A stretch of 64,000 bases of DNA from an uncultured Candidatus Saccharibacteria bacterium. GTDB taxonomy: Bacteria > Patescibacteriota > Minisyncoccia > Phycocordibacterales > UBA6899. Within the stretch, counting starts at the first letter, position 1. Each line of letters opens with the position of its first letter. The notes below the pieces were generated by a model. The model had not been told where the DNA came from. It worked only from the letters and a program-made list of their open reading frames with translations, and did no database searches. This document shows, piece after piece, positions 2,228 to 62,300 of this stretch. The stretch lies in NCBI GenBank assembly GCA_964469335.1, contig CAYXYK010000001.1, positions 78,501 through 142,500 of the forward strand. Reading direction: 5' to 3'. The position numbers and the translations under genes were made by a program.

Positions 2228-2239
2228 GTAGGGTACGAC

Positions 2240-3256: not shown

Positions 3257-3299
3257 AGATAAGTATCATTCATCATAACTGCTTTTATTCCAGAAAAGT

Positions 3300-3338
3300 A
3301 ACGAACAAAAACGACCTAACGGGTCGTTTTTGTTCGTT
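3300..3338 (-). terminator. Perfect 17-bp-arm hairpin (rho-independent terminator of the 623-aa surface-protein gene)
   Basis: AACGAACAAAAACGACC-taacg-GGTCGTTTTTGTTCGTT; on minus strand followed by ACTTTTCT; lies between stop (3347) and galE start (3256). Confidence 0.6.
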
Positions 3339-3346
3339 GAACCTGA

Positions 3347-43393: not shown

Positions 43394-43891
43394 TCAGGGT
43401 TTAATACTCCTAAAATACTCCTCTCGCTCAGCCCTAAACGCAGTAGCTCTGTGTGGGTTTAGAAGATATGCAGACTTAAGGACATAATAGCCGTTACGCT
43501 TTGCAAGAATTACGGCGTAATTTTCTTTTTCAAGCCAAATAACAACCCTACGATCACCCCTCCTTTCGTTTTCCCAAGAAGAAATCTCGGGATGACTATC
43601 GCTTGCCTGTATGATCCAAGCAATCCATCTTAACCTCTCACACCTCCGAAGGTCTGGGGTTCGCTCCGCCTCAATTTCACCCTCTGATGTTAAATGCCAA
43701 AAAGAAGAGGGCTTACCCTTATACTCGGGTTTCCTTTGCAATACCACTTTCGTGCCACGAAAAAGGAGCGCGGCGTCCCTAAGTGACTCACAATATATCG
43801 CATATAACTCTTCTTGGTATGTTTCCCAGTCTCCACCCGAGAACACCACAAGCTGTGGAGGATTCAAATCTTGTTCGTCTGCGGTTTCCAT
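43394..43891 (-). CDS. Hypothetical protein (165 aa), overlaps DUF3800-like gene by 28 nt
   Basis: METADEQDLNPPQLVVFSGGDWETYQEELYAIY...; no motif recognised; lies at GC drop. Confidence 0.4.
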   Translation of the reverse strand: METADEQDLNPPQLVVFSGGDWETYQEELYAIYCESLRDAALLFRGTKVVLQRKPEYKGKPSSFWHLTSEGEIEAERTPDLRRCERLRWIAWIIQASDSHPEISSWENERRGDRRVVIWLEKENYAVILAKRNGYYVLKSAYLLNPHRATAFRAEREEYFRSIKP

Positions 43892-44565
43892 ACAAAGACA
43901 TTGAACTTATCCTCCTCTCTATCTGTTGAAGCTAGGACTGTTTTGCCGATATTACTTTCAATCATTTCCACAACCTCTCGTTTTCCCGCGCTTGTTTTCA
44001 GACCGCGGTGTGCGTAAGCCAGTGCGCCACAAAACAAGTCGGTAATTTGCATCAATTCGACTTCATGGGATCTCACTTGTTGAGCCCTTAGAGTAGAGAG
44101 GTCTTCGATGGACGCGATATTCAATATGCGCTTAAGCTCTTTGACCTTCTTATCCCCTTTTGTGTCCTTAATATCAAAATACAAATTATACTTTTCAGAG
44201 GGTTGCATAATCACGCGGAGCAGCTGGTAAAACATTTTGTAATACCAAGTATTGTGATCCTGTGAAAAAGCAGAGTGGTTAAGGAGTGTTTTATCAGGAA
44301 CTACCACTGCCCTAAAGTGAAGGTTCTGGTTTGAAAAAAAGTACTCGACGAGGGCTTTGTAGAAATTAACCTTTGACGCAGATATTTTTGTCCATTTTGC
44401 CTCAAAGGTCTGCGATAACCCGTGTTCTTTCTTGATTGCCCTAATTTGGGCAAAAGTTTCTTGGGAGTGCTCGTGGTCTACCCAAGTAGCCCCAAGAACA
44501 AATACTCCCAAGTGATCATGTTGGAGATGGCAACTTTCATCGCAATAGACATTATAGACAGCCAT
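43864..44565 (-). CDS. DUF3800-like protein (defence-island associated family)
   Basis: N-terminus MAVYNVYCDESCHLQHDHLGVFVLG with hallmark Y-x-DES motif of DUF3800; 233 aa. Confidence 0.45.
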   Translation of the reverse strand: MAVYNVYCDESCHLQHDHLGVFVLGATWVDHEHSQETFAQIRAIKKEHGLSQTFEAKWTKISASKVNFYKALVEYFFSNQNLHFRAVVVPDKTLLNHSAFSQDHNTWYYKMFYQLLRVIMQPSEKYNLYFDIKDTKGDKKVKELKRILNIASIEDLSTLRAQQVRSHEVELMQITDLFCGALAYAHRGLKTSAGKREVVEMIESNIGKTVLASTDREEDKFNVFVWKPQTNKI

Positions 44566-44647: not shown

Positions 44648-45401
44648 ATGGGAAAAATGACGCAATCAATGCAAAAAGTAATGAACTACCTTCTCGACCT
44701 TGTAGAGTCGGAAGACTTTCAGATGCAGATCAAGAACCTTCGAAAAGAGGTCGGTATCCCCGAGAATGGACTTCCGTATATTCAAGAAGACAAGGATACA
44801 TTTCGTGGACGCTCACTCTTCTATATGCCCAAGGGCGTAACGCAAGCGCAAGCAAAGCAAGCAAATCTTGGACTAAGGGAGATCACAAAGGATTTTCCTG
44901 TTCGTGAATTAGACATCACCGTCGGCTTTCGAATGTATTTTTTTCACAATGAGTTATTCATGGACAACTTTGAAAATGGTATTTTCTTCAGTAACCTTTG
45001 TAAAATTGTTGATCTGCGGGGAGACTTTCAGGAATATGCCCCCATATATGAGGAGCGAATGGAGAATTACAAAGGAGGACTATGACAAAAAGCATAAGGA
45101 GCTCAGAGAAAAGCAGTATGATCTCGGTATGCAATTGGACGACCACACAAAGGCAGACGAAAGCTATCATATTGCCGCTTCTACAGTGCTCAGCTTAGCG
45201 AAACGTGCAGTAGAGATTTTCGAAAGTTCTGAACCTGAGGAAAAACGCGTGTTTTTGAATTATCTACTTCAGAACTCCACCGTAAACGGAAAAAACCTAA
45301 GCTACGCCTTGCGTTCTCCGTTTAATGCTATCCTCGAATTGACGACTCAACCCACTAGGGGTGCCGTAGTGTGTAGACTTCGAACCTATTTGGTCAGTTA
45401 G
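44648..45401 (+). pseudogene. Frameshifted gene (two overlapping ORFs 44648-45085 / 44949-45401); C-terminal part weakly resembles tail of large serine recombinases
   Basis: Frames switch near a C5 run (gccccc 45041-45046). Second part ...EEKRVFLNYLLQNSTVNGKNLSYAL resembles the C-terminal ENKRTLLISLGTNFILYDKEL of the recombinase at 53309. Confidence 0.35.
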
Positions 45402-45571: not shown

Positions 45572-45847
45572 CTAATCTCGACAATATCCAACAGCAGTTG
45601 AGTCCTTGCTCACTTTGCACTGAATATTGTTTGGATCGGTAGAGTCACAAAGCCAATTTCCTGCCTCTCTTGCACGCTGACATGCTCTCATGTCTGTAAA
45701 TCTTGCTGAGGCAAAGCAGTCTTCATAAACATCTGAGCAAATTACATACTCAACTGGAAATTGATAGTGTTTATACCCAAAATAGATACTTGTTATAACA
45801 AATACCGTTAGAGCGATTCTTAAGATTTTTATCTCAGTTACTTTCAT
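45572..45847 (-). CDS. Small secreted/membrane-anchored Cys-rich protein (91 aa)
   Basis: N-terminal hydrophobic segment ILRIALTVFVITSIYFGY; 7 Cys in C-terminal 60 aa; ~30% GC. Confidence 0.4.
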   Translation of the reverse strand: MKVTEIKILRIALTVFVITSIYFGYKHYQFPVEYVICSDVYEDCFASARFTDMRACQRAREAGNWLCDSTDPNNIQCKVSKDSTAVGYCRD

Positions 45848-45866
45848 AATTTAATATTTACAAATA

Positions 45867-46640
45867 CTACACAACAATTTTTTTCTTAATTTCATCATAA
45901 TATTTCCGGCATTCAACATCTACAGTTGTTGCAAAAAGGTATGTTGCTTCTACAAGTGATTGATGAAGACTGGAACTCTCTGTTGCTACGCTAATTAACT
46001 TTTTTTCAAAAGCTTGCTTATTTTTTACATATTCATTGTGCATCAATTCTCCAAACGGACCACCGTGAACAATTGATGACAGGGCAGAATATTCGCTGAT
46101 TCTGCTTGATATATATTCTTTTTGATACTTATCAAAAACAGCATCCTCTATGTTGCTATTATTTATCAGATAACTGAAAATATTAGAAATATTAAACTGC
46201 AGTGCGGCATTTTCTAATTTGGTATTGTTGTCACTCTTTGTACCCCACTTTGTATACTCAGGGGATATTTTAGCATTAAAATTATTTATTTTTTTAAATG
46301 CTTCTAAATCTTCGTTGCCTCTTAATTGGCTATAATATGTTTTACCTACTGAGTCATCTCTATCTTTTAATGACTTAACGTAAATATATAAATGCTTAAA
46401 ATTATGCTCCACAAGTGAGCGAAGTAAAACGAGAGAGGAATAAAGGTTACCACTCTGACACTCGCTTAAAATTGCATTTGTTAAGTACCCACTTTTTGGT
46501 ACGAAGGACACGAGTGCTTTTCCTGTTAGTTTAAAATTCCCTTTGGCCAAAGATTCACTAATTATCGGTAGTGTTCTTGTTGTCTTCTCTGCAAGTAAGA
46601 CATTTAAGCAAATCTGTTTTTCAATTTCACCAAAAGACAT
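45867..46640 (-). CDS. Hypothetical protein (257 aa) with possible HEPN-like Rx4H motif
   Basis: LLRSLVEHNFKH (R-x4-H); AT-rich, no other motif recognised. Confidence 0.35.
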   Translation of the reverse strand: MSFGEIEKQICLNVLLAEKTTRTLPIISESLAKGNFKLTGKALVSFVPKSGYLTNAILSECQSGNLYSSLVLLRSLVEHNFKHLYIYVKSLKDRDDSVGKTYYSQLRGNEDLEAFKKINNFNAKISPEYTKWGTKSDNNTKLENAALQFNISNIFSYLINNSNIEDAVFDKYQKEYISSRISEYSALSSIVHGGPFGELMHNEYVKNKQAFEKKLISVATESSSLHQSLVEATYLFATTVDVECRKYYDEIKKKIVV

Positions 46641-46704
46641 GTCTCCAAGCTAGTCCATATCTTAACGTAATGCAATCTAGATTTGGGAGTAAATCGGCGC
46701 ATGC

Positions 46705-47205
46705 CTAATTTCCTCCTTCAAAATCACGGAGGATTTTTAGGTATTCTTGTTGAACATCGTGTGGGATCTGGGGATGATCAAGTGGTTTAATTGCACCTTT
46801 GTTTTCGACAATCACACTTACCTCATCAAAGAAAAATCCATCTTGGGTGGCCATGAATAGGAAGGAAGGGTTCCAAGACTCTGCCATGCGGTGAGCATAG
46901 CGATATACATAGTCGCTATCGAGATGGTGGAGATATTTCACCTCGATCAATCTTACTTCTTTTGTTTTCTTGTTAATTACGGCAAAATCAGGTGAGGTCC
47001 TGAGTATCTCTAGCGTACCTTTGTTTTCATCATACCCACCCTGCACCAGTTCAGGGACAATTTTTTCATAACCAAACTCTAGCACAGTGAAGTCTCCAAC
47101 CTCACGAAGCATCTGCGCAAAAATTGTTTCTGCGATTTTGCCTTTTACTAAATTTCTTGCGAATGTGATGTTGTTGCTCATAAACTGAATGGTAGCATAA
47201 GCCAA
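46705..47205 (-). CDS. Candidate PD-(D/E)xK-fold nuclease (166 aa)
   Basis: LRTSPDFAVINKKTKEVRLIEVKYL: hydrophobic-PD ... E-V-K with the spacing of the restriction-endonuclease-like fold. Confidence 0.35.
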   Translation of the reverse strand: MAYATIQFMSNNITFARNLVKGKIAETIFAQMLREVGDFTVLEFGYEKIVPELVQGGYDENKGTLEILRTSPDFAVINKKTKEVRLIEVKYLHHLDSDYVYRYAHRMAESWNPSFLFMATQDGFFFDEVSVIVENKGAIKPLDHPQIPHDVQQEYLKILRDFEGGN

Positions 47206-47649
47206 TTACAACATCACTTCGGGTTTAAATTCCACTATTGGACAGATCGCCAATGCTCTTGCTTCTCCGGTTAGTTCAGGACTACCATGGGAATTCGTTA
47301 TCAAGTCATATGCTCCTTTTGGGCAAACCATGAAATGCATTTTTGGTAAAAAGATTGAGAATAATTTTGCTACACCTCGATATTTTTTGCGTGTCCATGT
47401 GAAAATAACTTCTTCTGATGAGGCAACATTTCTCTCATTGTAGATTCTATTTAAGTTACGAAAATCCTCTTTTTGAGTAATTAAACCCTTAGTGGAGCTA
47501 TCCATCCCCGAGCACAGAAAGACTATTGAGGCATAGGGCTTGAGTCTGCCTACCTCAGTTTTATCCTCTGGTAGGTAACTTAATATCTTGCATACCTCGC
47601 CATCAATAGAAGACCAGTCGCTGTCACTTAGTAGTATTTTCATGCTCAT
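47206..47649 (-). CDS. Hypothetical protein (147 aa), immediately upstream of and abutting the PD-(D/E)xK candidate
   Basis: MSMKILLSDSDWSS N-terminus loosely reminiscent of TIR/Rossmann-like beta-strand start; no firm assignment. Confidence 0.3.
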   Translation of the reverse strand: MSMKILLSDSDWSSIDGEVCKILSYLPEDKTEVGRLKPYASIVFLCSGMDSSTKGLITQKEDFRNLNRIYNERNVASSEEVIFTWTRKKYRGVAKLFSIFLPKMHFMVCPKGAYDLITNSHGSPELTGEARALAICPIVEFKPEVML

Positions 47650-47656
47650 AAGATCC

Positions 47657-48025
47657 TTATTTCTTTTCCATGTAAGCCATATATTCTGAACTTAAAGAAC
47701 TTTCTTCTGCTTCCAGTAGGTGATATACACAGCTGTCTAATAGCGCACGATCAAAAGATTCTCTGTTGCTTAGTTTTATTTTCCCCAAACAACTGTCGAC
47801 ATATTGACCGTGGAGTGCAAACCTAATTTGGGCACAGTCTTCGCGATTCTTAAAACCAATTTCTCTTAAAAATCCTTCTTCATATCCCTCACATGACACA
47901 ATACTGGCTACCCTCTCACCCTGATCAACTCGCCAAATGTCCCTTCCCAAATATAGTCCGAGAAAAAGCATGAAGAAAGAAAATACGATAAGAAAATTTT
48001 CTGAGCTCTTTGAAAATAGTTTCAT
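47657..48025 (-). CDS. Small membrane-anchored protein (122 aa), first gene of AT-rich operon
   Basis: FLIVFSFFMLFLGLYLG TM helix then Cys-containing soluble domain. Confidence 0.35.
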   Translation of the reverse strand: MKLFSKSSENFLIVFSFFMLFLGLYLGRDIWRVDQGERVASIVSCEGYEEGFLREIGFKNREDCAQIRFALHGQYVDSCLGKIKLSNRESFDRALLDSCVYHLLEAEESSLSSEYMAYMEKK

Positions 48026-48299
48026 GACTTAGAAATATAAGACTTGTTCTAATCCCATTGTCGGCATACAAAAAGCCCACCACGGGTAGAGACCGAAATC
48101 TCTCAATCTGGTTTCCCAGAAAGGCAGGACATGCAACCCCATGATGGGTTTGTTATGCGTGTCCTGACTTTTTCACCATGCCAATATTGCTATTGGTTTA
48201 GGCTACTGTTTCTTATTCAGTTGTACCGATACTCTAGCACAAAAAACTCTTTATTTACCAGCATTGCAACCAATATGTTGTCTGATGGGAATTAGGCAT

Positions 48300-49973
48300 A
48301 TGGTGTATTATATATTTGTGAATATACAGAAAATTATAATACACAACTTCCGAAGTATTGATGACGTAGGGATTGAGTTATCTGAATTTGGTAAGATCAA
48401 CTTATTCATCGGCAAGAATAATTGTGGGAAGTCCAACATACTCAGATTCATCCAATTGCTCGGAAACAGGACTCTCGTAAGCCAGATGAATAATGCTTCT
48501 TTAAACGGAGAATACACAATTAATCCACCTTTTCTTAGTATTGATGATCACAATGGATACCAAATTACAAAACCAATCAAATTCTCAATTTCTGCTCAAG
48601 TTACAGAGGACTTCATTGAACGTTCTTTGGGCTTAATACCAACAGACGACTTCTATGTTACTTACGAACTGAGACAGAATCAAGATTCTTTATGCTTGAT
48701 CAAGCAAACATCCAGCTTCATTAATGATTTGCCGGAAGAAACAATTAGATTATTTGAATCTACACATGCGTCCAGATTTGGTGGCTCCTCTGGTGGAACC
48801 ATTGGAGATGCGAGAAATAGAGTTTCTAATTTGCTTAAGGTGTCGAATCAGATAGGGTTTCCAGCGGTTGTGCACATGGATGAATTCAGAAAAGCAAGGG
48901 AAAACAAAGAGCTTAAGGCGAAATTAAATGAAATCGTAAATCCAGACTACACAAATCAAGCAAACATTCTTAAGAAAGAACTCTTGTGTAAATATTTTAA
49001 GGAAGTATTTGGTTTTGAAGTTGACATCAAAATTCCTAGTTTAGAAAAAGAGATAGAGTTAGTGATCGACAAAAAACAAATACCCCTCCACTCTCTTGGT
49101 GCAGGATTACAGCAAGTAGTACTAATTGCTTTTACAATAGTCACGAGTGACGCGGAGATAATATGTATTGATGAACCTGAGCTTCATATTCACCCAGCTG
49201 CACAGAGAGAGTTACTGAGCCTGATTTCAAAAATTGAGGACAAGATATTTTTTTTAGCCACACATTCAAACCACTTCTTAGACTACGAAGTGAAAAACAA
49301 AAAAGTTTTTCAACTTGTAAAGGAAGATGGGGCGACAAAAATTACCCCCAATGCAAAGACAAATTCATACAGAGAGGTACTTGATGATCTAGGAATTAGG
49401 GCAAGCGAAATTTATCAAACAAACGGAGTTTTGTGGGTTGAGGGACCGTCAGATAGAATCTATATAAAAAAATGGATTGAGCTACTTTCACCAGAGTTAG
49501 AGGAGGGATTGCAATACACTTTTCAATACTATGGCGGCAAAATTTTATCTCACTACTCAGTTGATGATCTTGAATTTAAGGAGTACCTAAACGTTCTCAA
49601 TTTAAACAGGAACGCATATGTGGTCATGGATAGTGATATGAGTAAAAAATTTTCCATACAAGACCTGAGGGATACAAAGAGAAGAATTATTACTGAATGT
49701 GAAAAAAATAAAATAGGTTATTGGATTACTGAGGGAAAGGAAATGGAGAGCTATTTAACTGATCGCCTGCTCACTGAATATGCAAAAACTAAAATTAATC
49801 GCGATATATATGCACCGATCCAAGATTATTGCCCATCTTACAATAATGACACTAAGGTCCTTTTCTCAAGGAAAATATCAACTGCGTTAACTTTGGATGA
49901 TATTTCAAACAACTTAGATTTGCACGCAAAAATTACGGAAATTATCGATCACATAATAATTTGGAATAAGTAG
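48300..49973 (+). CDS. OLD-family nuclease: N-terminal ABC-type ATPase + C-terminal Toprim domain (class-1 OLD / GajA-like)
   Basis: IQKIIIHNFRSI start region. Walker A GKNNCGKS. IDEPELHIHPAAQRELL (Walker B/D-loop/H-switch, as in AAA_21/OLD). Toprim motifs GVLWVEGPSD and YVVMDSD. Alternative upstream start 48264. Confidence 0.7.
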   Translation: MVYYIFVNIQKIIIHNFRSIDDVGIELSEFGKINLFIGKNNCGKSNILRFIQLLGNRTLVSQMNNASLNGEYTINPPFLSIDDHNGYQITKPIKFSISAQVTEDFIERSLGLIPTDDFYVTYELRQNQDSLCLIKQTSSFINDLPEETIRLFESTHASRFGGSSGGTIGDARNRVSNLLKVSNQIGFPAVVHMDEFRKARENKELKAKLNEIVNPDYTNQANILKKELLCKYFKEVFGFEVDIKIPSLEKEIELVIDKKQIPLHSLGAGLQQVVLIAFTIVTSDAEIICIDEPELHIHPAAQRELLSLISKIEDKIFFLATHSNHFLDYEVKNKKVFQLVKEDGATKITPNAKTNSYREVLDDLGIRASEIYQTNGVLWVEGPSDRIYIKKWIELLSPELEEGLQYTFQYYGGKILSHYSVDDLEFKEYLNVLNLNRNAYVVMDSDMSKKFSIQDLRDTKRRIITECEKNKIGYWITEGKEMESYLTDRLLTEYAKTKINRDIYAPIQDYCPSYNNDTKVLFSRKISTALTLDDISNNLDLHAKITEIIDHIIIWNK

Positions 49974-50005: not shown

Positions 50006-50380
50006 ATGGAAACAACCATTGAAAAATCGAATACTAACCAGATTTCAAAGCGTGGAGGCGCCCGTGTGGGGGCCGGCAGAAAGCCAAAAATGCAGTATGA
50101 GGCACGTGAACTATTCAATATGGCAGTTGATGCACGTTGGCCCTTAATCATGCAGAAAATCGACGAATTAATTCAAAAGGGAGACAAGGATATTCTCAAG
50201 ATGATTGTAGAACAACGCATTGGGAAACCCACACAAAGCGTGGCAGTAAAGAATGATGGAAATCCACGAGTTAACTACAATTTCTTTATCCAGCCCAAAG
50301 TGCAGGAGGCCGTGAGAGTGTTTGAGGACCAGCTGAAAAAAGAAATAATGCTTGAGGCTAGTACTTCTCCTCAAGATTGA
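50006..50380 (+). CDS. Small DNA-binding-type protein with N-terminal AT-hook-like Gly/Arg motif (phage small-terminase/regulator-like?)
   Basis: KRGGARVGAGRKPK motif then helical domain; 124 aa. Confidence 0.3.
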   Translation: METTIEKSNTNQISKRGGARVGAGRKPKMQYEARELFNMAVDARWPLIMQKIDELIQKGDKDILKMIVEQRIGKPTQSVAVKNDGNPRVNYNFFIQPKVQEAVRVFEDQLKKEIMLEASTSPQD

Positions 50381-51430: not shown

Positions 51431-51652
51431 ATGAATTACAAAACATTTGTAACGGTTAATGTGCCCATGGTTAGTGAGCTAAGGCGTCGGTTATTTGCTG
51501 AGTTTGGCATTGATATTTCACAAGAAGATATATGGCAGTCCCTTCTAATTGCTCAGCTTTCAAATCACCTATTTGGTGACTTAATAGCAAAAGCTCATCA
51601 GAAAAAATATCAATGTAGTACGCATGTTCAGTGTAAATGTAAAATAGTATGA
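51431..51652 (+). CDS. Ribbon-helix-helix (CopG/Arc-like) DNA-binding protein
   Basis: MNYKTFVTVNVPMVSELRRRLFAEFG: alternating-hydrophobic beta-strand followed by two helices; 4-nt overlap with downstream NTPase gene. Confidence 0.35.
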   Translation: MNYKTFVTVNVPMVSELRRRLFAEFGIDISQEDIWQSLLIAQLSNHLFGDLIAKAHQKKYQCSTHVQCKCKIV

Positions 51653-53010
51653 AAGCACTAAAGAAACAGCAGAAGGCATCTGTGGTAACTTCGGAGTTTT
51701 TGGCAGAGACAGTTTATGACCCGAACACTAAGGAAACAAGATTCGCAGTTTGCGCCAGTGGTGAAATGGGCTTTACAGAGAGTATTTTTTTGAAAGGCAA
51801 AACAATTTACCCTCTAGATGGTGGTGATGATCTCATTCAAAAAAGTGTGATACTTCTTCCGTCTCTCCCAATTGAATACGGTGATGAAGCGAAGTTGCTT
51901 GAAGAAATCAGAGCTTTCATTCATAAGTATGTCGACATAACGCCTATGTATGAGCAGATTGCATCATATTACGTACTATTTAGCTGGGTGTTCGATAAGT
52001 TTCATGAAGTACCTTATCTACGTGCTATTGGTGATTTTGGAAGCGGAAAGAGTAGGTTCATTCGGACCATAGGATCAATCTGCTATCGGCCAATTTTTAC
52101 AGGAGGGGCAACGACAACCGCGCCAATTTTTCGCATTCTCGATGATATCGGCGGGACACTTGTCCTCGACGAGGCGGACTTACGGGCAAGTGACATGACG
52201 AACGACATGGTGAAGATCTTAAATACGGGATATGAGAAAGGAGTCCCAGTGTTACGAACGCATGGAAAGGATTTCTCAGAGATAAAAGCATTTAATGTAT
52301 TCTCTCCAAAAATTATTGCCACCAGAGAGAAGTTTGATGACAAAGCACTTGAGAGTAGGTTTCTTGTTGAAGAAATGGGTCAAGGGAGTTTACGTAAAGA
52401 CATACCAAGAAACTTACGTGATGGTTTCAGCCTCGAAGCACTTGATTTACGCAATAAACTCCTCATGTGGAGATTCAGAAACTTCAGTAAGCCTATTTGT
52501 CAGGATGAAAAGCCGATAGAAGGAATCCATCCGCGCCTGCACCAAATTATTGTACCCCTTCTCTCAATAATTGAGTCTGAGGAAATGAGAGTTTCACTGA
52601 AGGAGTTTGTGATGAAGTACAACAATGACTTAGTGGCGGACCGTGGCCTTACTAGGGAATCAGATATTATCTTCGCAATCTTGAAACTTGAACATGAACT
52701 CGGAAATAAAGAGGTTACTGTTGGTGAGATAGCAAAATCACTAAATGCTGATCTTGAAGTTGACGACTTTGATGGCAAAATTACTGCCAGCAAAGCCGGA
52801 TGGTATCTACGCGCCAAACTACAGCTTAAATCAGAGAAAACACGAAAGGGATACATTCTCAACCTTGAGAAAAATAGAGCAAAACTAAACTTTTGGAAAG
52901 AGCGATTCGGTATTACCGATGCGGATATTCGTGGCGAGGATGTGAACCTCGTGAACGATGTGAACGTTACACAGCAGAGCCTACTTAATGCTGAGAATGT
53001 CGGTTTCTAG
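51649..53010 (+). CDS. P-loop NTPase, likely plasmid/phage replication (primase-helicase-associated) type with C-terminal winged-helix-like region
   Basis: Walker A GDFGSGKS, Walker B TLVLDEADL ~35 aa later; 453 aa. Confidence 0.4.
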   Translation: MKALKKQQKASVVTSEFLAETVYDPNTKETRFAVCASGEMGFTESIFLKGKTIYPLDGGDDLIQKSVILLPSLPIEYGDEAKLLEEIRAFIHKYVDITPMYEQIASYYVLFSWVFDKFHEVPYLRAIGDFGSGKSRFIRTIGSICYRPIFTGGATTTAPIFRILDDIGGTLVLDEADLRASDMTNDMVKILNTGYEKGVPVLRTHGKDFSEIKAFNVFSPKIIATREKFDDKALESRFLVEEMGQGSLRKDIPRNLRDGFSLEALDLRNKLLMWRFRNFSKPICQDEKPIEGIHPRLHQIIVPLLSIIESEEMRVSLKEFVMKYNNDLVADRGLTRESDIIFAILKLEHELGNKEVTVGEIAKSLNADLEVDDFDGKITASKAGWYLRAKLQLKSEKTRKGYILNLEKNRAKLNFWKERFGITDADIRGEDVNLVNDVNVTQQSLLNAENVGF

Positions 53011-53220
53011 CCCAACCAATTCATTTAGTCATGCAAATCCCCAAAGTAAAACTAGATGAATTCATCCAGTTATACCAAAAACACTTTGGGGTAGTTCTCA
53101 CGCGTGATCAAGCTTTGGAAAAGGCATCTAAATTGCTCTACTTCATGCGTGTCGTTGTGGGAAGTAATTGAAATGTTAAAATGAATGAGCTAGACAAAAG
53201 ACGATCTGATGTTCACTCAA

Positions 53221-53311
53221 TTAACCTTGTACCCAAAGAGGGGCAACGACGGCTTTTGTCTAGCAACATGAGCATCAGTTCGTTGTCCCTCTTTGTGCTT
53301 TTAGGTTAATG
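53221..53311. repeat. Imperfect ~31-bp-arm inverted repeat overlapping recombinase start codon (candidate att/recombination site)
   Basis: Left arm TTAACCTTGTACCCAAAGAGGGGCAACGAC; right arm (revcomp) TTAACCTAAAAGCACAAAGAGGGACAACGAA; outer TTAACC and inner AAAGAGGGRCAACGA match; 28-nt spacer. Confidence 0.5.
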
Positions 53312-55003
53312 ATAAAAAAAATTATGAATCAGACTTCCGATAAAATCCGATATTTCCTCTATGCTCGAAAATCGAGCGAGAGTGAGGAAAAACAAGTTGC
53401 CTCGATTGATTCCCAGATCACCGAACTTGAACGCTTGGCGAAACAGTACGGACTTACTGTGGTCCGCGTATTCTCTGAATCCAAGTCTGCAAAAGCCCCA
53501 AACAATCGCCCTGTGTTTGGTGAGATGATGGAACGTCTCTATAAAGGCGAGGCTGAAGGGATTCTATGCTGGAAGCTGGACCGCCTCGCAAGAAACCCTG
53601 TCGATGGTGGAACCATCAACTGGATACTTCAAAATGGCATTGTGAAGCATATTCGCACCTTTGACCGCGAGTATCTCCCTACTGATAACGTACTGATGAT
53701 GAGCGTAGAATTTGGCATGGCAAATCAGTTCATCCGTGACCTTAGCTCGAACACCAAGAGAGGCCTGAACTCAAAAGCAGAAAAAGGGGTATTTCCGAGT
53801 CGTGCACCTATTGGATATTTAAATGATAAATACCATCCTAAAGGAGAAAAGAAAATCATTCCTGATCCTGAACGTTTTTCCATCATCCGAAAGCTCTGGG
53901 ATGAGCTCCTAGAGAAAGAATGTACGATTGATAGCCTTCACACACTTGCAACTGAAAAGTACCATCTCACTGGCTTCTATGGAAAGCCTGTCCACATAAA
54001 TGTTATATATGATATTTTCACTAATCCTTTCTATTGTGGGATGTTCAACTGGAATAAGAAAATCTGGCAAGGTACGCATGAGCCCATGATTTCAAAAGAA
54101 GAATTCGAGCGAGCACAATTAATCATCTCGGGTAAAAACAAAGGAAACAGGAAGCGAAAACATGATTTCCCTTTTGCAGGCACAATGCATTGCGGTGAGT
54201 GTGGGTGCGCAATCACCGCAGAATTTCACCGCAAGAAGCAGGTGAATGGTAATGTACATGAGTACACCTTCTATCGTTGCTCGAAGCGTAAAGGGACTGA
54301 ATGTAAGCAATCATTTGTGCGCTCAACTGAACTAGAGAAGCAAGTACTGAAAAAACTTGAGGAAGTAGAGATTCCTCGTGATTTCTCTGAATGGGCACTT
54401 GGATTGCTCCGTATTGAGACCGACAGAGAAAAGATAACACGGGATCAAATGCTGAGTAAATTTCAAAATGACTACAGTAAGTGTCTCAAGCGTATTGATA
54501 CCCTCAAGGATATGCGAATGAACCGCGAGATTGACTCGGATGAGTTTGCAAAAAGAAAAGCTGATGTTGAAACAGAGAAAGACAGCATTCGGTCTTCTAT
54601 TAACAAGCTCGACAAGCGAGTAAGTGAGCGACTGGTTGAATTTGAAGAAAAGTTTAGCTTTGCAGAAACAGCAAAGGAGAAGTTTGAAAAGAATACTGAG
54701 AACAAGCGGACACTGCTCATTTCACTGGGAACTAACTTCATTCTCTATGACAAAGAGTTGAAATTTGATTGGGAAGAGATCATGGCACAGGTTCGAACCG
54801 CATCAAAAGAAGCGAAGAAACTTCACAAAGCGTTCGAACCTATTGAAAACCGCTATACTTCAACGGATTATGCAGAAATGTACTCTGCTAGTCCGATAAT
54901 GGGTCGCCAGAGGGACGCATTCAGAACTCTCGATTGGGCGCAGATCAAGAGAGATCTTGAGGTAATCTCACCCCTTCAGCCACAGTGGCTTATTCGAGCG
55001 TAA
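53309..55003 (+). CDS. Large serine recombinase (integrase)
   Basis: IRYFLYARKSSESEEKQVASIDSQ (catalytic Ser, SxDxQ), GILCWKLDRLARN, recombinase domain, zinc ribbon CGECGCAITAEF...YRCSKRKGTEC, C-terminal coiled coil; 564 aa. Confidence 0.85.
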   Translation: MIKKIMNQTSDKIRYFLYARKSSESEEKQVASIDSQITELERLAKQYGLTVVRVFSESKSAKAPNNRPVFGEMMERLYKGEAEGILCWKLDRLARNPVDGGTINWILQNGIVKHIRTFDREYLPTDNVLMMSVEFGMANQFIRDLSSNTKRGLNSKAEKGVFPSRAPIGYLNDKYHPKGEKKIIPDPERFSIIRKLWDELLEKECTIDSLHTLATEKYHLTGFYGKPVHINVIYDIFTNPFYCGMFNWNKKIWQGTHEPMISKEEFERAQLIISGKNKGNRKRKHDFPFAGTMHCGECGCAITAEFHRKKQVNGNVHEYTFYRCSKRKGTECKQSFVRSTELEKQVLKKLEEVEIPRDFSEWALGLLRIETDREKITRDQMLSKFQNDYSKCLKRIDTLKDMRMNREIDSDEFAKRKADVETEKDSIRSSINKLDKRVSERLVEFEEKFSFAETAKEKFEKNTENKRTLLISLGTNFILYDKELKFDWEEIMAQVRTASKEAKKLHKAFEPIENRYTSTDYAEMYSASPIMGRQRDAFRTLDWAQIKRDLEVISPLQPQWLIRA

Positions 55004-55200: not shown

Positions 55201-55605
55201 TCATTTTCCTTTGTAAAAATCTTTGAACATCGAATCATCCCAGATGGACTTCGCTATGATATAAATTATACCAAGAATTTGCCCAAAAACAGAAACTGAG
55301 AGCACCTCGAGCTCATACCCGTTCAATAGGGTGAATTGATGATCTGTAAAAATTCTGACATATGACTGGATGGCAATAATTGTGAAAAGGAGAAGGAAGG
55401 ATACTACGGCTGATCCTATCGCAAAATAAAAAACTATCTTCCTCTGACCCTTTCGCTCTTCGAGTATGTTACCAACCGACTGAGGATCTGGCTGGGAAAA
55501 CTCCTCAAGGGAAGCCGCCTTGTTTGCCACTTTTTCTATCAGTGCCTCTAGCTCCGAATGCTCATCTGGAGTTAGTTTGTGTGTTTTTATTTCCTCGCGA
55601 GCCAT
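55201..55605 (-). CDS. Small membrane protein (134 aa), overlaps ImmA-like gene
   Basis: Two TM helices (IVFYFAIGSAVVSFLLLFTIIAI; ILGIIYIIAKSIW). Confidence 0.4.
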   Translation of the reverse strand: MAREEIKTHKLTPDEHSELEALIEKVANKAASLEEFSQPDPQSVGNILEERKGQRKIVFYFAIGSAVVSFLLLFTIIAIQSYVRIFTDHQFTLLNGYELEVLSVSVFGQILGIIYIIAKSIWDDSMFKDFYKGK

Positions 55606-56108
55606 TTCAGTCTGTTCTTTACAGCTATTTCAGAGACACCGAAGTACTGCGCCGCTGCGCCAATATCTCCTGTTGTTGAGATAACCTTAATAAATTGATC
55701 CTTGGGCATCAGCAGGGTCGCGGCAAAGTAGTTTGCCTCTGTCTCTTCAAGCGACTCGACTGTATTGTCTTTGTAATTAAAGGAGTCGATACGAAGTTTT
55801 TCCTGATTAGGATGGAGCAAGAAATGCCCAAGTTCGTGTGCCAACGTAAAAGTTTTCCTTGTTGGACTATAGCTGCTGTTGAGCAGTATCTTTGCTCCAC
55901 CGTTTTCCCATTTGATTACGCCGTCAATCTCTGTGTCCGCATCAGTTTTTGGAAGATCAGTAAAAAACACCTCCGCCTGAAGCTCTTTTGCGAAATCAAG
56001 CAAATTATTTTGCGGATAGGAAAGACCTGTTCGCAACTTTAAAGACTCAACCGTTTGGTCAATCTCGTTTTGTCTTTCGGGGGTTAAAAATGCCATTGTT
56101 GCAATCAT
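55587..56108 (-). CDS. ImmA/IrrE-family zinc metallopeptidase
   Basis: FTLAHELGHFLLHPNQE (HExxH) in COG2856-like context; no adjacent XRE HTH partner recognised. Confidence 0.65.
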   Translation of the reverse strand: MIATMAFLTPERQNEIDQTVESLKLRTGLSYPQNNLLDFAKELQAEVFFTDLPKTDADTEIDGVIKWENGGAKILLNSSYSPTRKTFTLAHELGHFLLHPNQEKLRIDSFNYKDNTVESLEETEANYFAATLLMPKDQFIKVISTTGDIGAAAQYFGVSEIAVKNRLKWLARK

Positions 56109-56243
56109 ACATAAAATGCATGGGAAGAAAAGGTTTCTGCCCCACACCGTAATTATCTCATTATTCTCTCACATATCCAATGAGTTCCTCCTGAACTCTT
56201 TTGCTTGATAAAATGGCTTTGTTGAGTAAAGTAAAGTAACAAC

Positions 56244-59366: not shown

Positions 59367-62300
59367 ATGAACCACCCTAAAATAATCGACAACAACAGAA
59401 AGTTCCTCAAAGATACCCTTATCGAAGTGTCGAAGGAGTATTCTGAAATCTCTATCGCTACGGGCTACTGGGATCTTGAGGGTATGAAACTTATCCTCCC
59501 CGAGATTGAGGGGTACAAAAAAATCCGCCTTCTCATTGGACGTGAGCCGATGATCGCTCGCTATCACATGCAAATGCCTGAGCCCGATTATCCAGACAAG
59601 GACTTCAAATACGATCTCGCTGCACTCAAGCCCGACTCGTCGCTTACTGAAACAGTTGCGAAGATCAAAGAGCTCATCGAGAAAGGAACTCTTGAAGTCC
59701 GCGTCTATCGCAAAAACTTCCTTCACGCAAAGTGCTATATCTTCGGAACATACACATCCGACACTGCGGTCGGTATCATTGGCTCATCAAACTTCACAAA
59801 GAACGGACTGACGCACAACACGGAGCTGAACGCACTTGAGTCAGATCACCGCATCGTACTTTCAGAACCCAAGACTGCAACACAGGAAGTCGGACACCTC
59901 TACTGGTTTGACTCGTTTTGGAATGACGAAACCACAGAAAAATGGAATGAGGAGTTTGGGGATATTCTCTCAATGTCCACCGTAGGGCACATCACCTACA
60001 GCCCGTATGAAATGTATATGGCTACCCTTTGGCATCTCTACAAAAACGAAGTTACTGATGAGATCACTCTCTCAGCCGATGCGACAAAAAACCTCTACGC
60101 CTTCCAGCAAAGGAATGCCCAGCTACTCATAAACAAAATCGAGAAGACGGGTCTTGCCATGCTCGCTGACTCTGTTGGTCTCGGAAAGACAATCACGGCT
60201 GGGGCTGTAATCAAGCACTATCTCGAGCAAGGAGCACGCCGTATCTATGTCATTGCCCCCGCACGCCTTATCCCCCAGTGGAAAGACGATCTTGCAGACA
60301 AGCATGACATTTTTGGTGGGTATGAGCTTGTGTCGATGCAAGACATGGGTGCTATTGAAGAAGAGATGTCTCGCGACAAATACCGCAACGTTGACCTCTT
60401 TATCATCGATGAAGCCCACAACCTCCGCAACGACAACAGCACGCGGCACGTACAGATCCTTGAGTGGTTCAGCAACAACCCCGAAAGCAAGGTATTGCTT
60501 CTCACGGCAACCCCAGTCAACAACCAACTCACCGACTTTGTAAACCAAATCCAGCTTGCAAGTAAGGGCAAGCTCGACTCATTCCCCATAGTGTTCACCA
60601 CGAGCAAGAAGCGTGAAGTGATCGACTTCTTTGAAGCAGTAAAGCGCCTCGTGAGCTATATCAAAGGACAAGAAAATGCCAACGAACCCGTTGACTGGGA
60701 TCGCGTAAACAAGGTCATGCGTCAGGGTCTCAAGCACTTCCTCGTGCGCTCGACGCGCAACGGTATTATGAAGGACTTCAACGGAGGACTCCTCGGCAAC
60801 GACGGCATCATGCGAGCATTCCCAACAAGTATCGTGAAGCCGACAGAATACAGTTTCTCGGCTGAAAATGACAAAATTGTATCCGAGCAAGTCGCAACGG
60901 CAGTCTCAACAAGTTTTGAGAGCAGAGATCCTCGCTCCATCGACATCGACAAGCTCGTATCTGTTACCCAGCGCACAGAGCATCCGCTCGACACAATGAA
61001 GACGGGAGCGTTATCAAGTGAGTGCACTCAATCAGGAGTATTCACAAACCTCTTCCAAATCGTGCTTACTTTCGGGTTTGCTCCATACAAAGCTCGTATT
61101 TACGAAAACAGATTTTACGGAAAAACTCCCGACGAAATCAAGGAATACAAACTCAAGCCAAAAGAGAGCTTTGCGCTTCTGAGTCAGATCAGCATTCACA
61201 ACATCATTCGCGTGAGCTTGCTCAAGCGCCTTGAGTCTTCCCCGTACGCCCTCAAAAACTCTATCCAAAACTATCTCAACAGACTCGCCACCTTCAGTGA
61301 GTGGCTCGAGAAGGGATACATTCTTTCCTTCAAAGACATTGCCGAACTCGTCAAAGAATACGGGGATGATCTCGAGGAGATGCCAACTGATGCTCTTGAT
61401 GAGAAGATTGTTGCAGATCCAAGTGTCTACAATATCGAGGCGCTCAAGAACGACATTCTTCGTGATCAAAAAATCGCAAAGACCCTCATCGAGCTGTGTA
61501 ACGCCATCGAGAAGCACGACGACAAGCTTATCCGCTTTGTGGAACTCATAAAGGAAATAAAACAAACGACAGGAAGCAAGAAGATACTCGTCTTTAGTTT
61601 CTACGCTGACACCATCAAATACCTCGAGAAAAACCTCGGAGCGTACTTGAGCGAGTCGGAAATGAAGGAGGCATCGTTCGTTACTGGTGCAAATGCGCTC
61701 GACATCAAGCAGATCACAGGGCGCTTCTCTCCACTATCAAAAGGGTTCACTGTCGACGCAGAACATCCTGCGATTAACTATCTCTTCGCAACGGACGTGC
61801 TCTCTGAGGGACAGAACCTCCAAGACTGCCCCGTGCTCGTGAACTTCGACCTCCACTGGAACCCTGTCCGCATGATCCAACGAAACGGTCGCATCAATCG
61901 CCTTGGCTCTCAGTATGACACCGTCTATGTCTACAACATGGCACCAGAGAAGCAGCTCGAGACATACCTCAAGCTCGTGAAGCGACTCGAACAGAAGATC
62001 AACAAAATCGCACACACCATTGGCACAGATCAGTCGATACTTGGGGAGCAGGAAAATCCACTTGAATATATCGACCAAGTAGAGGACGTAAACAAAGTAA
62101 CCGAGCTCTATGACGAAGCAACTGCAAGCAAGGCACTTCTCGCCCTCGAAGACGACGCAGACTTCCTCACTGAAGATGAGTATATTTTTGAACTACGCAG
62201 TTTCCTGAAAAATAGTACCGAAAAGGAAATCGAGACGGTCAAAAATGTCGCAGTTGGAAAATGGGGCTATCTTCCCGAAGTAAGGCGGAAAGTGGTCGAG

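What the first reader, a model, noticed from the sequence alone, without database searches (positions are those of the whole stretch)
48300..49973. Standalone OLD-family ATPase-Toprim nuclease (class 1 OLD / GajA-like) without a partner helicase
Walker A GKNNCGKS, the IDEPELHIHP ABC-type motif and Toprim LWVEGPSD / VVMDSD motifs give the classic OLD architecture. No UvrD-like GajB gene is adjacent, so this is not canonical Gabija; the downstream gene is a 124-aa AT-hook-like protein. The gene lies in a low-GC accessory region next to other defence-like genes.
Basis: partly seen in the sequence, partly recalled or inferred. Interest (0 to 1): 0.6.

Follow-up and report, generated by a model that had tools for sequence, protein, structure and literature searches.

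The report
Solitary OLD-family nuclease on mobile element
The gene is a real single-gene OLD-type ATPase-nuclease, probably an anti-phage weapon, carried as cargo on an integrating mobile element in a Patescibacteria genome; it is a divergent member of a known family, not a new kind of system.

Summary
[quoted passage not shown] All are invariant or nearly so in 32 homologs.

Sequence evidence for Toprim is weak: Pfam PF20469 scores below its cutoff. Structure prediction settles it. The whole model matches retron-Eco8 OLD, GajA and Thermus OLD. The C-terminal domain alone best matches the C-terminal regions of class 2 OLD proteins.

No helicase, reverse transcriptase or other partner is conserved. 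Flanking genes in 94 related loci share no family found in more than 4 loci. The 124-aa and 453-aa downstream genes look like mobile-element backbone, as does the serine integrase. The 453-aa protein is elsewhere fused to Prim-Pol.

By context this is a class 1 (solitary) OLD, but its C-terminus is class-2-like. Relatives are common, often on proviruses or appended to restriction-modification operons. Verdict: new member of a known kind, modest interest.

Unexpected extra: a LOOT RNA (Rfam RF03000) lies head-to-head with the gene. It tracks serine-integrase elements, not OLD genes.

The parts
48285..49973 (+). OLD-family ATPase-Toprim nuclease gene. The stop codon is included.
   Evidence: ORF list; 100% match to P0001, 562 aa; N-terminal alignment with homologs; sequence around the start.
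48318..49349 (+). ABC ATPase head (about residues 7-350) with a helical insertion at about residues 140-237, which may correspond to the OLD dimerisation domain.
   Evidence: Pfam AAA_15 and AAA_21. Profile hits to GajA (6.7e-19), Thermus OLD, Eco8 OLD and Rad50. AF2 model with pLDDT 84.9 and its secondary structure. Foldseek hits to OLD, GajA and Rad50/SMC heads.
48411..48434 (+). Walker A / P-loop GKNNCGKS (residues 38-45).
   Evidence: G38, N40, N41, G43 and K44 are invariant and S45 nearly so in 32 homologs.
49158..49196 (+). Walker B plus D-loop region IICIDEPELHIHP (residues 287-299). The signature-like SLGAGLQ lies just upstream (G267, G269) and the H-loop THS at residues 321-323.
   Evidence: E292, P293, E294, H298, P299, G267, G269, H322 and S323 are invariant. 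This stretch aligns to Thermus OLD, P2 Old and GajA.
49422..49760 (+). Toprim domain (about residues 375-487). It holds the catalytic Glu in LWVEGPSD (E381, plus D385), the invariant YGG at 411-413, the DxD in VVMDSD (D444, D446), and T477/E481/E483.
   Evidence: Invariant columns. The profile aligns WVEGPSD to the GajA IEGPSE motif, placing E381 opposite GajA E379. PF20469 is below threshold. The C-terminal model (pLDDT 88.5) best matches the C-terminal regions of Xanthomonas and Burkholderia OLD, 6njv/6nk8, at E 2e-4 to 8e-4, probability 1.00, TM about 0.5.
49761..49970 (+). Short C-terminal helical region (about residues 488-557) with invariant K519 and a conserved terminal helix (D540, L541, I552, N556).
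   Evidence: Predicted helices at 488-495, 507-510, 516-527 and 541-555. Invariant columns. The best fold matches are class 2 Toprim-plus-helical-domain structures. Equating K519 with Burkholderia OLD K562 (PMC6755086) is inference.
48066..48204 (-). LOOT RNA (Rfam RF03000) with its own intrinsic terminator, transcribed divergently from the OLD gene. It is a marker of the mobile element, not a demonstrated partner of OLD.
   Evidence: cmscan 70.1 bits against a gathering score of 46.4, E 4e-11, full model matched. Terminator hairpin at 48090-48076 followed by a T-run. Fold z-score -3.5. A conserved extended -10-like box lies upstream in three copies.
50006..50380 (+). 124-aa gene directly downstream. 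Probably a mobile-element backbone protein with a basic N-terminal GAGRKPK motif. Not an OLD partner.
   Evidence: No Pfam, PADLOC or NCBIfam family; weak phrog_35980 hit. Absent next to OLD homologs elsewhere. A different 124-aa DUF5681-like gene holds the equivalent position in L001.
51649..53010 (+). 453-aa P-loop protein, probably the replication NTPase of the element. Not a GajB/UvrD helicase.
   Evidence: No UvrD or GajB hits. More than 900 homologs, the named ones from Patescibacteria, and some fused to Prim-Pol PF09250 and PriCT_1 PF08708.
53309..55003 (+). Large serine recombinase (integrase) of the element.
   Evidence: Pfam Resolvase, Recombinase and Zn_ribbon_recom; phrog_95 integrase at 1e-80. 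Homologous integrases occur in the LOOT-bearing loci L001, L020, L029, L034, L035, L037, L040 and L048; L038 carries a large serine recombinase identified by Pfam domains.

Best explanation
The gene encodes a solitary OLD-family nuclease. It has an N-terminal ABC (Rad50/SMC-like) ATPase head with a helical insertion, a C-terminal Toprim nuclease domain, and a short helical tail that carries a conserved lysine. It is accessory cargo on a roughly 9.5-kb integrative element in a Patescibacteria (Parcubacteria-type) genome. That element also holds a LOOT RNA, a replication NTPase and a large serine integrase. The following steps are inferred from characterised OLD proteins, not shown here. The protein probably forms a homo-oligomer. 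The ATPase head would bind ATP and act as sensor or gate for an infection cue such as aberrant or replicating foreign DNA. Activation would expose a two-metal Toprim site (metal A from E381, D444 and D446; metal B from D385, T477/E481 and E483; K519 stabilising the transition state). That site would then cut nucleic acid, either nicking invader DNA as Vibrio Vc OLD and GajA do, or cleaving tRNA as P2 Old and AriB do. The outcome would be to block a phage or rival element, possibly by abortive infection, and so protect the element and its host. What is shown: the domain architecture, the intact catalytic residues, the solitary context and the carriage on a mobile element. What is inferred: oligomeric state, trigger, substrate and the defence role.
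For: The ATPase and Toprim motifs are invariant across 32 homologs. The full-length AF2 model (pLDDT 84.9) has retron Eco8 OLD, GajA and Thermus OLD as its top PDB matches, E 2e-16 to 5e-15. The C-terminal model (pLDDT 88.5) best matches the class 2 OLD C-terminal regions 6njv and 6nk8, followed by AriB, Thermus OLD and GajA. The family profile hits GajA at 6.7e-19 and runs through the Toprim glutamate. PADLOC GajA models extend across the Toprim region, and Old, AriA and AriAB models also hit. The conserved acidic and lysine pattern mirrors the Burkholderia OLD set E400, E404, D455, D457, T506, E508, K562 (PMC6755086). Solitary status: no helicase or RT among neighbours, and 279 flanking ORFs from 94 related loci fall into 260 clusters, none present in more than 4 loci. 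Mobile and defence setting: low GC, a serine integrase, and neighbouring PDC-M04, CapP-like and HKD-Snf2 genes. Relatives sit on about 30 IMG/VR viral contigs and at the ends of type I and type III-like restriction-modification operons or next to a NERD gene. Solitary OLD proteins are documented defence genes: P2 Old (PMC12445682), Vc OLD (PMC12392090) and YbjD (PMC13261556).
Against: No function was tested. The Pfam Toprim hit is below threshold. The C-terminal profile alone finds no solved OLD by sequence. Profile comparison with P2 Old and E. coli YbjD aligns only ATPase motifs, so transferring a mechanism from them is a long extrapolation. The substrate (DNA or tRNA) cannot be told from sequence. 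For YbjD the Toprim domain was dispensable for the anti-phage phenotype (PMC13261556), and an archaeal OLD is reported as a cell-cycle gene (cited in PMC13261556), so defence is not the only possible role. The correspondence of K519 to Burkholderia K562 and the existence of a dimerisation insert rest on predicted structure without residue-level superposition.
Confidence: 0.72

Rival explanations
1. It is an orphaned Gabija GajA (class 2 OLD) that has lost its GajB helicase. In that case it would be a non-functional remnant, or would depend on a helicase encoded elsewhere.
For: Several PADLOC GajA models hit, some across the Toprim region. GajA is the best sequence-profile hit in the PDB. The C-terminal fold is closest to class 2 OLD C-terminal regions. 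One relative (L011) has a UvrD/PDDEXK helicase-nuclease 300 nt upstream.
Against: No UvrD-like gene is adjacent in the window. Across 94 loci of this clade no helicase cluster recurs, so the solitary state is ancestral to the clade and not a local loss. All catalytic residues are conserved, which argues against decay. In L011 the helicase lies upstream, whereas gajB lies immediately downstream of gajA.
Confidence: 0.07
2. It is a fused PARIS-like protein (AriA plus AriB in one chain, class 4 OLD). Such a protein would sense a phage anti-restriction protein and cleave tRNA.
For: The top PADLOC hit is AriA (2.2e-28), and the fused AriAB model also hits (2.4e-19). AriB (8ux9_A) is the sixth fold hit for the C-terminal domain. 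Like PARIS, relatives are embedded in restriction-modification operons. P2 Old and AriB are tRNases (PMC12445682, PMC12409363).
Against: The AriA and AriAB alignments cover mainly the ATPase half. The match to AriB is much weaker (E 1e-2, TM 0.37) than the match to class 2 OLD C-terminal regions (E 2e-4, TM about 0.5). A covalently fused nuclease cannot use the AriB-release mechanism.
Confidence: 0.1
3. It is one component of a multi-part system with its neighbours. The candidates are the adjacent LOOT RNA (by analogy with retron RNA plus OLD), the 453-aa NTPase acting as a helicase partner, or the divergent five-gene operon at 45572-48025.
For: LOOT lies 80-115 nt from the OLD start, head-to-head. 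LOOT also occurs in the loci of two of the four closest homologs examined (L020 and L001). [quoted passage not shown]
Against: The position and orientation of LOOT relative to OLD differ in all three loci: divergent upstream in the window, 185 nt downstream on the opposite strand in L020, and 1.9 kb away in L001. LOOT is absent from 8 other close loci and from all 80 metagenome loci, with positive controls working. LOOT instead tracks a large serine recombinase, in 10 of 15 LOOT loci. The 453-aa protein is a widespread Patescibacteria protein sometimes fused to Prim-Pol. No flanking ORF is shared between OLD loci except the integrase.
Confidence: 0.06
4. It serves the mobile element's own biology, for example replication, resolution, exclusion of sibling elements or stabilisation by addiction. 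Phage defence would not be its role.
For: It sits between LOOT and the replication and integrase genes, on the same strand. The three closest LOOT-bearing loci all combine OLD with a serine integrase. Non-defence roles are reported for some OLD proteins (cited in PMC13261556).
Against: Most LOOT and integrase elements have no OLD gene. Most OLD relatives are not in such elements. That distribution fits exchangeable cargo. The attachment of relatives to restriction-modification operons and defence islands points to defence.
Confidence: 0.1

Closest known systems
Class 1 OLD nucleases (phage P2 Old, Thermus scotoductus OLD 6p74, Vibrio cholerae Vc OLD, E. coli YbjD/OldB)
   Same: It is a single isolated gene with no helicase or RT partner. 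It has an ABC ATPase head with a helical insertion followed by Toprim, and it is carried on a mobile element as P2 old is. Thermus OLD is the best single-sequence PDB hit (5.6e-8) and among the top fold hits.
   Different: Sequence relationship is remote: hhalign to P2 Old and YbjD aligns only ATPase motifs. Thermus OLD lacks a C-terminal helical domain and uses R487 (PMC7049728). This protein has a helical tail of about 70 aa with invariant K519, and its C-terminal domain matches Thermus OLD less well (E 2e-2, TM 0.42) than it matches class 2 structures.
Class 2 OLD / Gabija GajA (Burkholderia pseudomallei and Xanthomonas campestris OLD C-terminal regions 6nk8 and 6njv; Bacillus cereus GajA)
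   Same: These are the best fold matches for the Toprim-plus-helical C-terminus and the best profile hit in the PDB (GajA, 6.7e-19). The pattern of conserved catalytic residues is the same: Glu, an acidic residue four positions on, DxD, T/ExE, then Lys (PMC6755086).
   Different: There is no UvrD-like GajB gene downstream, either here or in 94 related loci. The helical region is shorter (about 70 aa against about 90 aa). The Gabija complex mechanism needs GajB.
Retron Eco8 OLD effector (class 3)
   Same: It is the top Foldseek hit for the whole model (9lpa_B, 1.9e-16), and NCBIfam retron_eff_Eco8 is the best NCBIfam hit, although at 58 bits against a cutoff of 250. A structured RNA gene lies next door.
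   Different: There is no reverse transcriptase and no retron msr/msd RNA. The adjacent RNA is LOOT, which does not co-vary with OLD. The protein is about 190 aa shorter than Eco8 OLD.
PARIS AriA/AriB and AbiL (split ATPase plus Toprim systems; class 4)
   Same: The ATPase half scores best against AriA models. [quoted passage not shown] Relatives are embedded in restriction-modification operons, as PARIS often is.
   Different: Here both domains are in one polypeptide. The Toprim domain resembles AriB only weakly.

Membership tests
OLD family (ATPase-Toprim nucleases) | N-terminal ABC-type ATPase with Walker A, Walker B and H-loop | tested here: met
   Pfam AAA_15 at 1.6e-23 and AAA_21 at 4.4e-17. 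G38/K44, E292-P293-E294, H298 and H322 are invariant. The fold matches OLD, GajA and Rad50 heads.
OLD family (ATPase-Toprim nucleases) | C-terminal Toprim domain with a conserved Glu and a DxD motif | tested here: met
   E381 and D444xD446 are invariant. E381 aligns to GajA E379. The domain model matches OLD C-terminal regions at E 2e-4, probability 1.00. Caveat: Pfam PF20469 scores only 18.2 bits against a cutoff of 23.2, and the sequence profile of the domain alone finds no solved OLD.
OLD family (ATPase-Toprim nucleases) | Metal-dependent nuclease and ATPase activity | not testable with these tools
   This needs biochemistry. Only the conservation of the predicted ligands is shown.
Class 1 OLD | Isolated gene with no helicase immediately downstream (PMC7049728) | tested here: met
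   The downstream genes have no UvrD or GajB hits. No partner is conserved in 94 loci.
Class 1 OLD | No C-terminal helical domain after Toprim; catalytic Arg/Lys in a Toprim loop (Thermus OLD, PMC7049728) | tested here: inconclusive
   The model shows a helical tail of about 70 aa with invariant K519. It matches class 2 C-terminal regions better than Thermus OLD. No residue-level superposition was possible.
Class 2 OLD / Gabija GajA | [quoted passage not shown] | tested here: not met
   The next gene is a 124-aa ORF with no helicase domain. PADLOC finds no GajB among 10 neighbours, and none recurs in related loci.
Class 2 OLD / Gabija GajA | Toprim plus a dedicated helical domain that contributes Glu and Lys to the active site | tested here: inconclusive
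   The best fold hits are 6njv and 6nk8, and an E481xE483...K519 pattern is conserved. The active-site geometry was not verified.
Class 3 OLD (retron effector) | Adjacent reverse transcriptase and msr/msd non-coding RNA | tested here: not met
   There is no RT domain in the neighbours and no retron family in Rfam at gathering score or at E-value up to 1.
Class 4 OLD / PARIS (AriA-AriB) | Separate AriB (DUF4435 Toprim) protein, or a recognisable fused AriAB | tested here: not met
   There is no AriB-like neighbour. The AriAB model aligns only residues 279-402. The AriB fold match is weak (E 1e-2, TM 0.37).
LOOT RNA (Rfam RF03000), adjacent feature | Covariance-model score above the curated gathering threshold over the full model | tested here: met
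   70.1 bits against 46.4, model positions 1-121 of 121, E 4e-11. The alignment shows the four main hairpins.

The most novel reading that the evidence does not exclude
This protein and its roughly 1,650-4,300 cluster-level relatives may form a distinct OLD lineage that fits none of the four described classes. It would be solitary like class 1, built with a class-2-type Toprim-plus-helical catalytic module, and spread as a plug-in nuclease on proviruses, serine-integrase elements and the 3' ends of restriction-modification operons. In the Patescibacteria sub-clade it travels with the orphan LOOT RNA. That RNA could then be the regulatory RNA of these elements and control expression of the cargo and the integrase.
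Probability: 0.25. Interest if true: 0.5.

Novelty: new member of a known kind. Interest (0 to 1): 0.3.

Why it matters
Solitary (class 1) OLD nucleases are the least understood branch of a family central to Gabija, PARIS, retron and P2 immunity, and only a handful have been studied. This clade is large. It combines a class-1 context with a class-2-like catalytic module, so it offers a natural test of whether that module can work without GajB, and of whether it cuts DNA or tRNA. It also documents a defence-type nuclease on a mobile element of Patescibacteria. The practical gain is modest, because automated annotation already labels relatives as OLD-family nucleases. The neighbouring LOOT RNA may be the more useful lead. 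This orphan RNA is shown here to mark serine-integrase elements and proviruses, which gives its unknown function a testable context.

Tried and rejected
(1) Retron hypothesis. Rfam was searched at gathering score over the whole window and at E up to 1 over 38-60 kb. No msr/msd RNA was found, and there is no RT among the neighbours. Rejected.

(2) Helicase partner. The 453-aa P-loop protein was checked against Pfam, PADLOC and the PDB and by homolog search. It is a Patescibacteria replication-type NTPase that is sometimes fused to Prim-Pol, not a UvrD/GajB helicase. Rejected.

(3) The 124-aa gene as a partner. BLASTP against the 124-aa DUF5681-like gene of L001 gave no similarity. The gene is absent from other OLD loci. 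Rejected as a partner.

(4) LOOT as a cofactor of OLD. Rejected in favour of a link between LOOT and the integrase element.

(5) Sequence-only proof of Toprim. The C-terminal profile against the PDB gave only spurious hits, FlgM and topoisomerase IV at E of 0.004 or worse. This led nowhere, and the fold search was needed.

(7) Source genome. The exact-protein look-up found no contig, the genome-contig scan found only distant relatives, and the cluster look-up gave no names. The host was inferred from relatives of the pyruvate kinase instead.

(8) att sites. The repeat search over 44-56.5 kb found no convincing flanking repeats, as expected for a serine integrase. The exact ends of the element remain undefined.

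(9) Literature on LOOT function. Only database and method papers mention it.
Full report
OBSERVATION. The reported interval holds one long ORF, 48264-49973 on the + strand. The public gene call for the identical protein (P0001, 562 aa, on a 409-kb NCBI contig) starts at ATG 48285. The closest homologs begin at the position of GTG 48318. All four quoted motifs are present: GKNNCGKS (38-45), IDEPELHIHP (290-299), LWVEGPSD (378-385) and VVMDSD (441-446). GC falls from about 0.50-0.59 across most of the first 37 kb to 0.35-0.44 across about 38-58 kb.

IS IT AN OLD NUCLEASE? The ATPase half is unambiguous. Pfam gives AAA_15 at 1.6e-23 and AAA_21 at 4.4e-17, and there are many PADLOC ABC-ATPase hits, including AriA, GajA, Old, PtuA and retron ATPase-Toprim models.

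The Toprim half is weak by sequence. PF20469 reaches E 0.0037 and 18.2 bits, below its 23.2-bit cutoff, and only 7 of 32 family members hit it at E up to 0.01. A profile of the C-terminal 206 residues finds no solved OLD by sequence.

Three other lines of evidence establish the domain.
- Conservation. In 32 homologs of 26-61% identity the invariant or nearly invariant residues are E381, G382, S384, D385, R386 (within WVEGPSDR), Y411-G412-G413, D444, D446, T477, E481, E483 and K519.
- Profile alignment. The full-length family profile hits GajA at 6.7e-19. The alignment runs through the first Toprim strand and places E381 opposite GajA E379 and D385 opposite GajA E383.
- Predicted structure. The full-length AlphaFold model (pLDDT 84.9) has retron Eco8 OLD, GajA and Thermus scotoductus OLD as its best PDB matches, at 2e-16 to 5e-15, ahead of Rad50/SMC heads. 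The C-terminal domain modelled alone (pLDDT 88.5, pTM 0.84) best matches the C-terminal regions of Xanthomonas and Burkholderia OLD (6njv, 6njx, 6nk8; E 2e-4 to 8e-4, probability 1.00, TM about 0.5). AriB, Thermus OLD and GajA follow.

The conserved pattern is a Glu, an acidic residue four positions later, DxD, T/ExE, then Lys. It mirrors the two-metal site of Burkholderia OLD: E400, E404, D455, D457, T506, E508, K562 (PMC6755086). The residue-by-residue equivalence is my inference, because no superposition could be run.

IS IT SOLITARY? Ten neighbours were screened against Pfam, PADLOC and NCBIfam. None is a UvrD/GajB helicase, a reverse transcriptase or an AriB-like Toprim protein.

The one P-loop candidate is the 453-aa protein at 51649-53010. 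It belongs to a large, well-conserved family. Its named members come from Patescibacteria, and in some members it is fused to Prim-Pol and PriCT_1. In the related locus L001 an 826-aa Prim-Pol protein occupies the same slot. It is therefore the element's replication protein.

I examined eleven homolog contexts individually. OLD stood alone in L004, L005, L014 and L017. In L001 it lies 18 nt after a type III-like methylase/ResIII pair. In L015 it lies 18 nt after a type I hsdM. In L012 it lies 22 nt after a NERD gene in a defence island. In L011 a UvrD/PDDEXK gene lies 300 nt upstream.

A systematic count over 94 loci gave 279 flanking ORFs in 260 clusters. The largest clusters are present in only 3-4 loci: HsdM, a Dcm-like methylase, a 363-aa unknown protein and split OLD fragments. 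So there is no obligate partner. This clade is a single-gene module that is sometimes bolted onto restriction-modification operons.

HOW COMMON IS IT? The first search gave 917 hits at E below 1e-5. Several sources already name relatives 'ATP-dependent nuclease' or 'endonuclease of the OLD family'. A profile of the C-terminal domain alone finds 4,272 cluster representatives at 50% identity with E up to 1e-3, and 1,654 with E up to 1e-30. Almost all hits lie at the C-terminus of proteins of 540-600 aa. About 30 IMG/VR viral contigs carry full-length relatives. The family is real, sizeable and already recognisable.

WHICH CLASS? By the published criterion of context (PMC7049728, PMC10568477, PMC13261556) it is class 1, meaning solitary. 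By structure it departs from the class 1 archetype. Thermus OLD lacks a helical domain after Toprim. This protein has a helical tail of about 70 residues with an invariant lysine, and it matches class 2 C-terminal regions best. Profile comparison with P2 Old and E. coli YbjD aligns only ATPase motifs. I therefore file it as a divergent OLD-family member with a class-1 context and a class-2-like catalytic module. I do not file it as Gabija, a retron effector or PARIS, because the defining partners were tested for and not found.

MECHANISM (inferred). ATP binding and hydrolysis by the ABC head would gate a two-metal Toprim nuclease. Characterised solitary OLDs differ in target. Vc OLD nicks DNA and blocks phage replication (PMC12392090). 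P2 Old is a tRNase that amputates the anticodon arm and is activated by DNA structures (PMC12445682; bioRxiv 10.64898/2026.07.10.737580). Which mode applies here cannot be decided from sequence.

GENOMIC SETTING. Relatives of the window's pyruvate kinase are named Parcubacteria, Paceibacteria, Wolfebacteria and Minisyncoccia, so the host is a Patescibacteria bacterium.

The OLD gene heads a same-strand run: OLD, 124 aa, 246 aa, 88 aa, the 453-aa NTPase, then a large serine recombinase at 53309-55003 (Resolvase, Recombinase and Zn-ribbon domains; phrog_95 at 1e-80).

To the left is a divergent five-gene operon at 45572-48025 with no confident family. Beyond that lie two overlapping ORFs at 44648-45401; the C-terminal one resembles part of a serine recombinase, possibly a relic of a second element.

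Nearby are a complete PDC-M04A/B candidate defence pair (43394-44565; 2.5e-86 and 2.8e-52), a CapP-like IrrE protease (55587-56147) and an HKD+Snf2 protein (59367-62846).

THE LOOT RNA. The check for structured RNAs found no retron. It found a full-length LOOT RNA (RF03000) at 48088-48204 on the minus strand, at 70.1 bits against a gathering score of 46.4. This lies 80-115 nt from the OLD start, head-to-head. It has its own terminator (48090-48076 plus a T-run), a conserved extended -10-like box upstream, and folds better than shuffled sequence (z = -3.5).

LOOT also occurs in the loci of two of the four closest OLD homologs examined (L020-L022 and L001), but at different distances and orientations. 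It is absent from eight other OLD loci and from all 80 metagenome OLD loci, with the positive controls working.

A pattern scan of IMG/VR followed by Rfam confirmation found 12 further LOOT copies on predicted viral contigs. Counting the window, 10 of 15 LOOT loci have a large serine recombinase nearby. In several (L029, L034, L035, L040) it is divergent and roughly 150-350 nt away. Two loci have a portal-like gene.

LOOT therefore marks serine-integrase elements and proviruses. The OLD gene is cargo inserted between LOOT and the replication and integrase genes. I found no published function for LOOT.

VERDICT. This is a new, divergent member of a known kind: an OLD-family solitary nuclease. 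Interest is modest. The open points are the class-1-context versus class-2-module mismatch, the DNA-or-tRNA question, and the LOOT-integrase association seen in passing.

Noticed in passing
window 48066-48204 (-); also L020 4290-4413, L001 11569-11691, and the IMG/VR loci L028, L029, L034, L035, L037, L038, L040, L042, L046-L049: A full-length LOOT RNA (Rfam RF03000, an orphan metagenomic sRNA) with its own promoter-like box and terminator lies head-to-head with the OLD gene. In 10 of 15 LOOT loci a large serine recombinase is nearby, often divergent and roughly 150-350 nt away. Several of these contigs end at a tRNA or carry a portal-like gene. LOOT seems to be a component of serine-integrase elements and proviruses, and here the host is Patescibacteria. 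I found no published function.
   Followed up: partly
window 43394-44565 (-): Two overlapping genes match the PADLOC candidate defence system PDC-M04: the DUF3800 protein PDC-M04A at 2.5e-86 and PDC-M04B at 2.8e-52. PHROGs labels the second one 'replication protein'.
   Followed up: partly
window 44648-45401 (+): Two overlapping ORFs of 145 and 150 aa. The second resembles part of the L020 serine recombinase (24% identity over 116 aa, E 8e-9). This may be a decayed integrase from a second, adjacent element.
   Followed up: no
window 59367-62846 (+): A 1159-aa protein with a PLD/HKD nuclease domain fused to an SNF2 helicase (PADLOC C3a139 'HKD+Snf2' at 4e-51; DrmD-, BrxH- and DpdE-like). It is preceded by 520-aa and 383-aa proteins that match no family, so this may be another defence module.
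   Followed up: no
window 55201-56147 (-): A CapP-like IrrE/ImmA metalloprotease (Peptidase_M78 at 1.6e-25; PADLOC capP at 3e-24) overlaps a 134-aa ORF that has a hydrophobic stretch and matched no family. Together they resemble a regulator pair of the kind that controls defence or prophage genes.
   Followed up: no
window 51649-53010 (+): A 453-aa P-loop protein with no Pfam family. It has more than 900 close homologs (57-68% identity), the named ones from Patescibacteria. Some are fused to Prim-Pol and PriCT_1, which suggests an uncharacterised replication NTPase of elements in the candidate phyla radiation.
   Followed up: partly
L001 3809-9653; L015 1-6668; L012 4209-6632: OLD relatives sit 18-22 nt after the last gene of a type III-like restriction-modification pair, after a type I restriction-modification operon, and after a NERD gene. 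This suggests co-transcription with restriction systems in part of the family.
   Followed up: partly
window 53046-53075: A 30-nt near-perfect palindrome (GTAAAACTAGATGAATTCATCCAGTTATAC) lies between the 453-aa gene and the integrase gene. It could be an operator or a recombination site.
   Followed up: no
window 45572-48025 (-): A five-gene operon divergent from OLD, coding for proteins of 122, 147, 166, 257 and 91 aa. Only sub-threshold hits were found (TnsA-like endonuclease N-terminal domain at E 0.008; DUF5677 at E 0.001). Function unknown. LOOT lies immediately upstream of it on the same strand.
   Followed up: no
window 5343-11660 (-) and 27469-30900 (-): A 2105-aa ORF that was not examined, and a 1143-aa ORF with lipase/esterase-like domains that lies within a second low-GC patch at 27-30 kb.
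   Followed up: no
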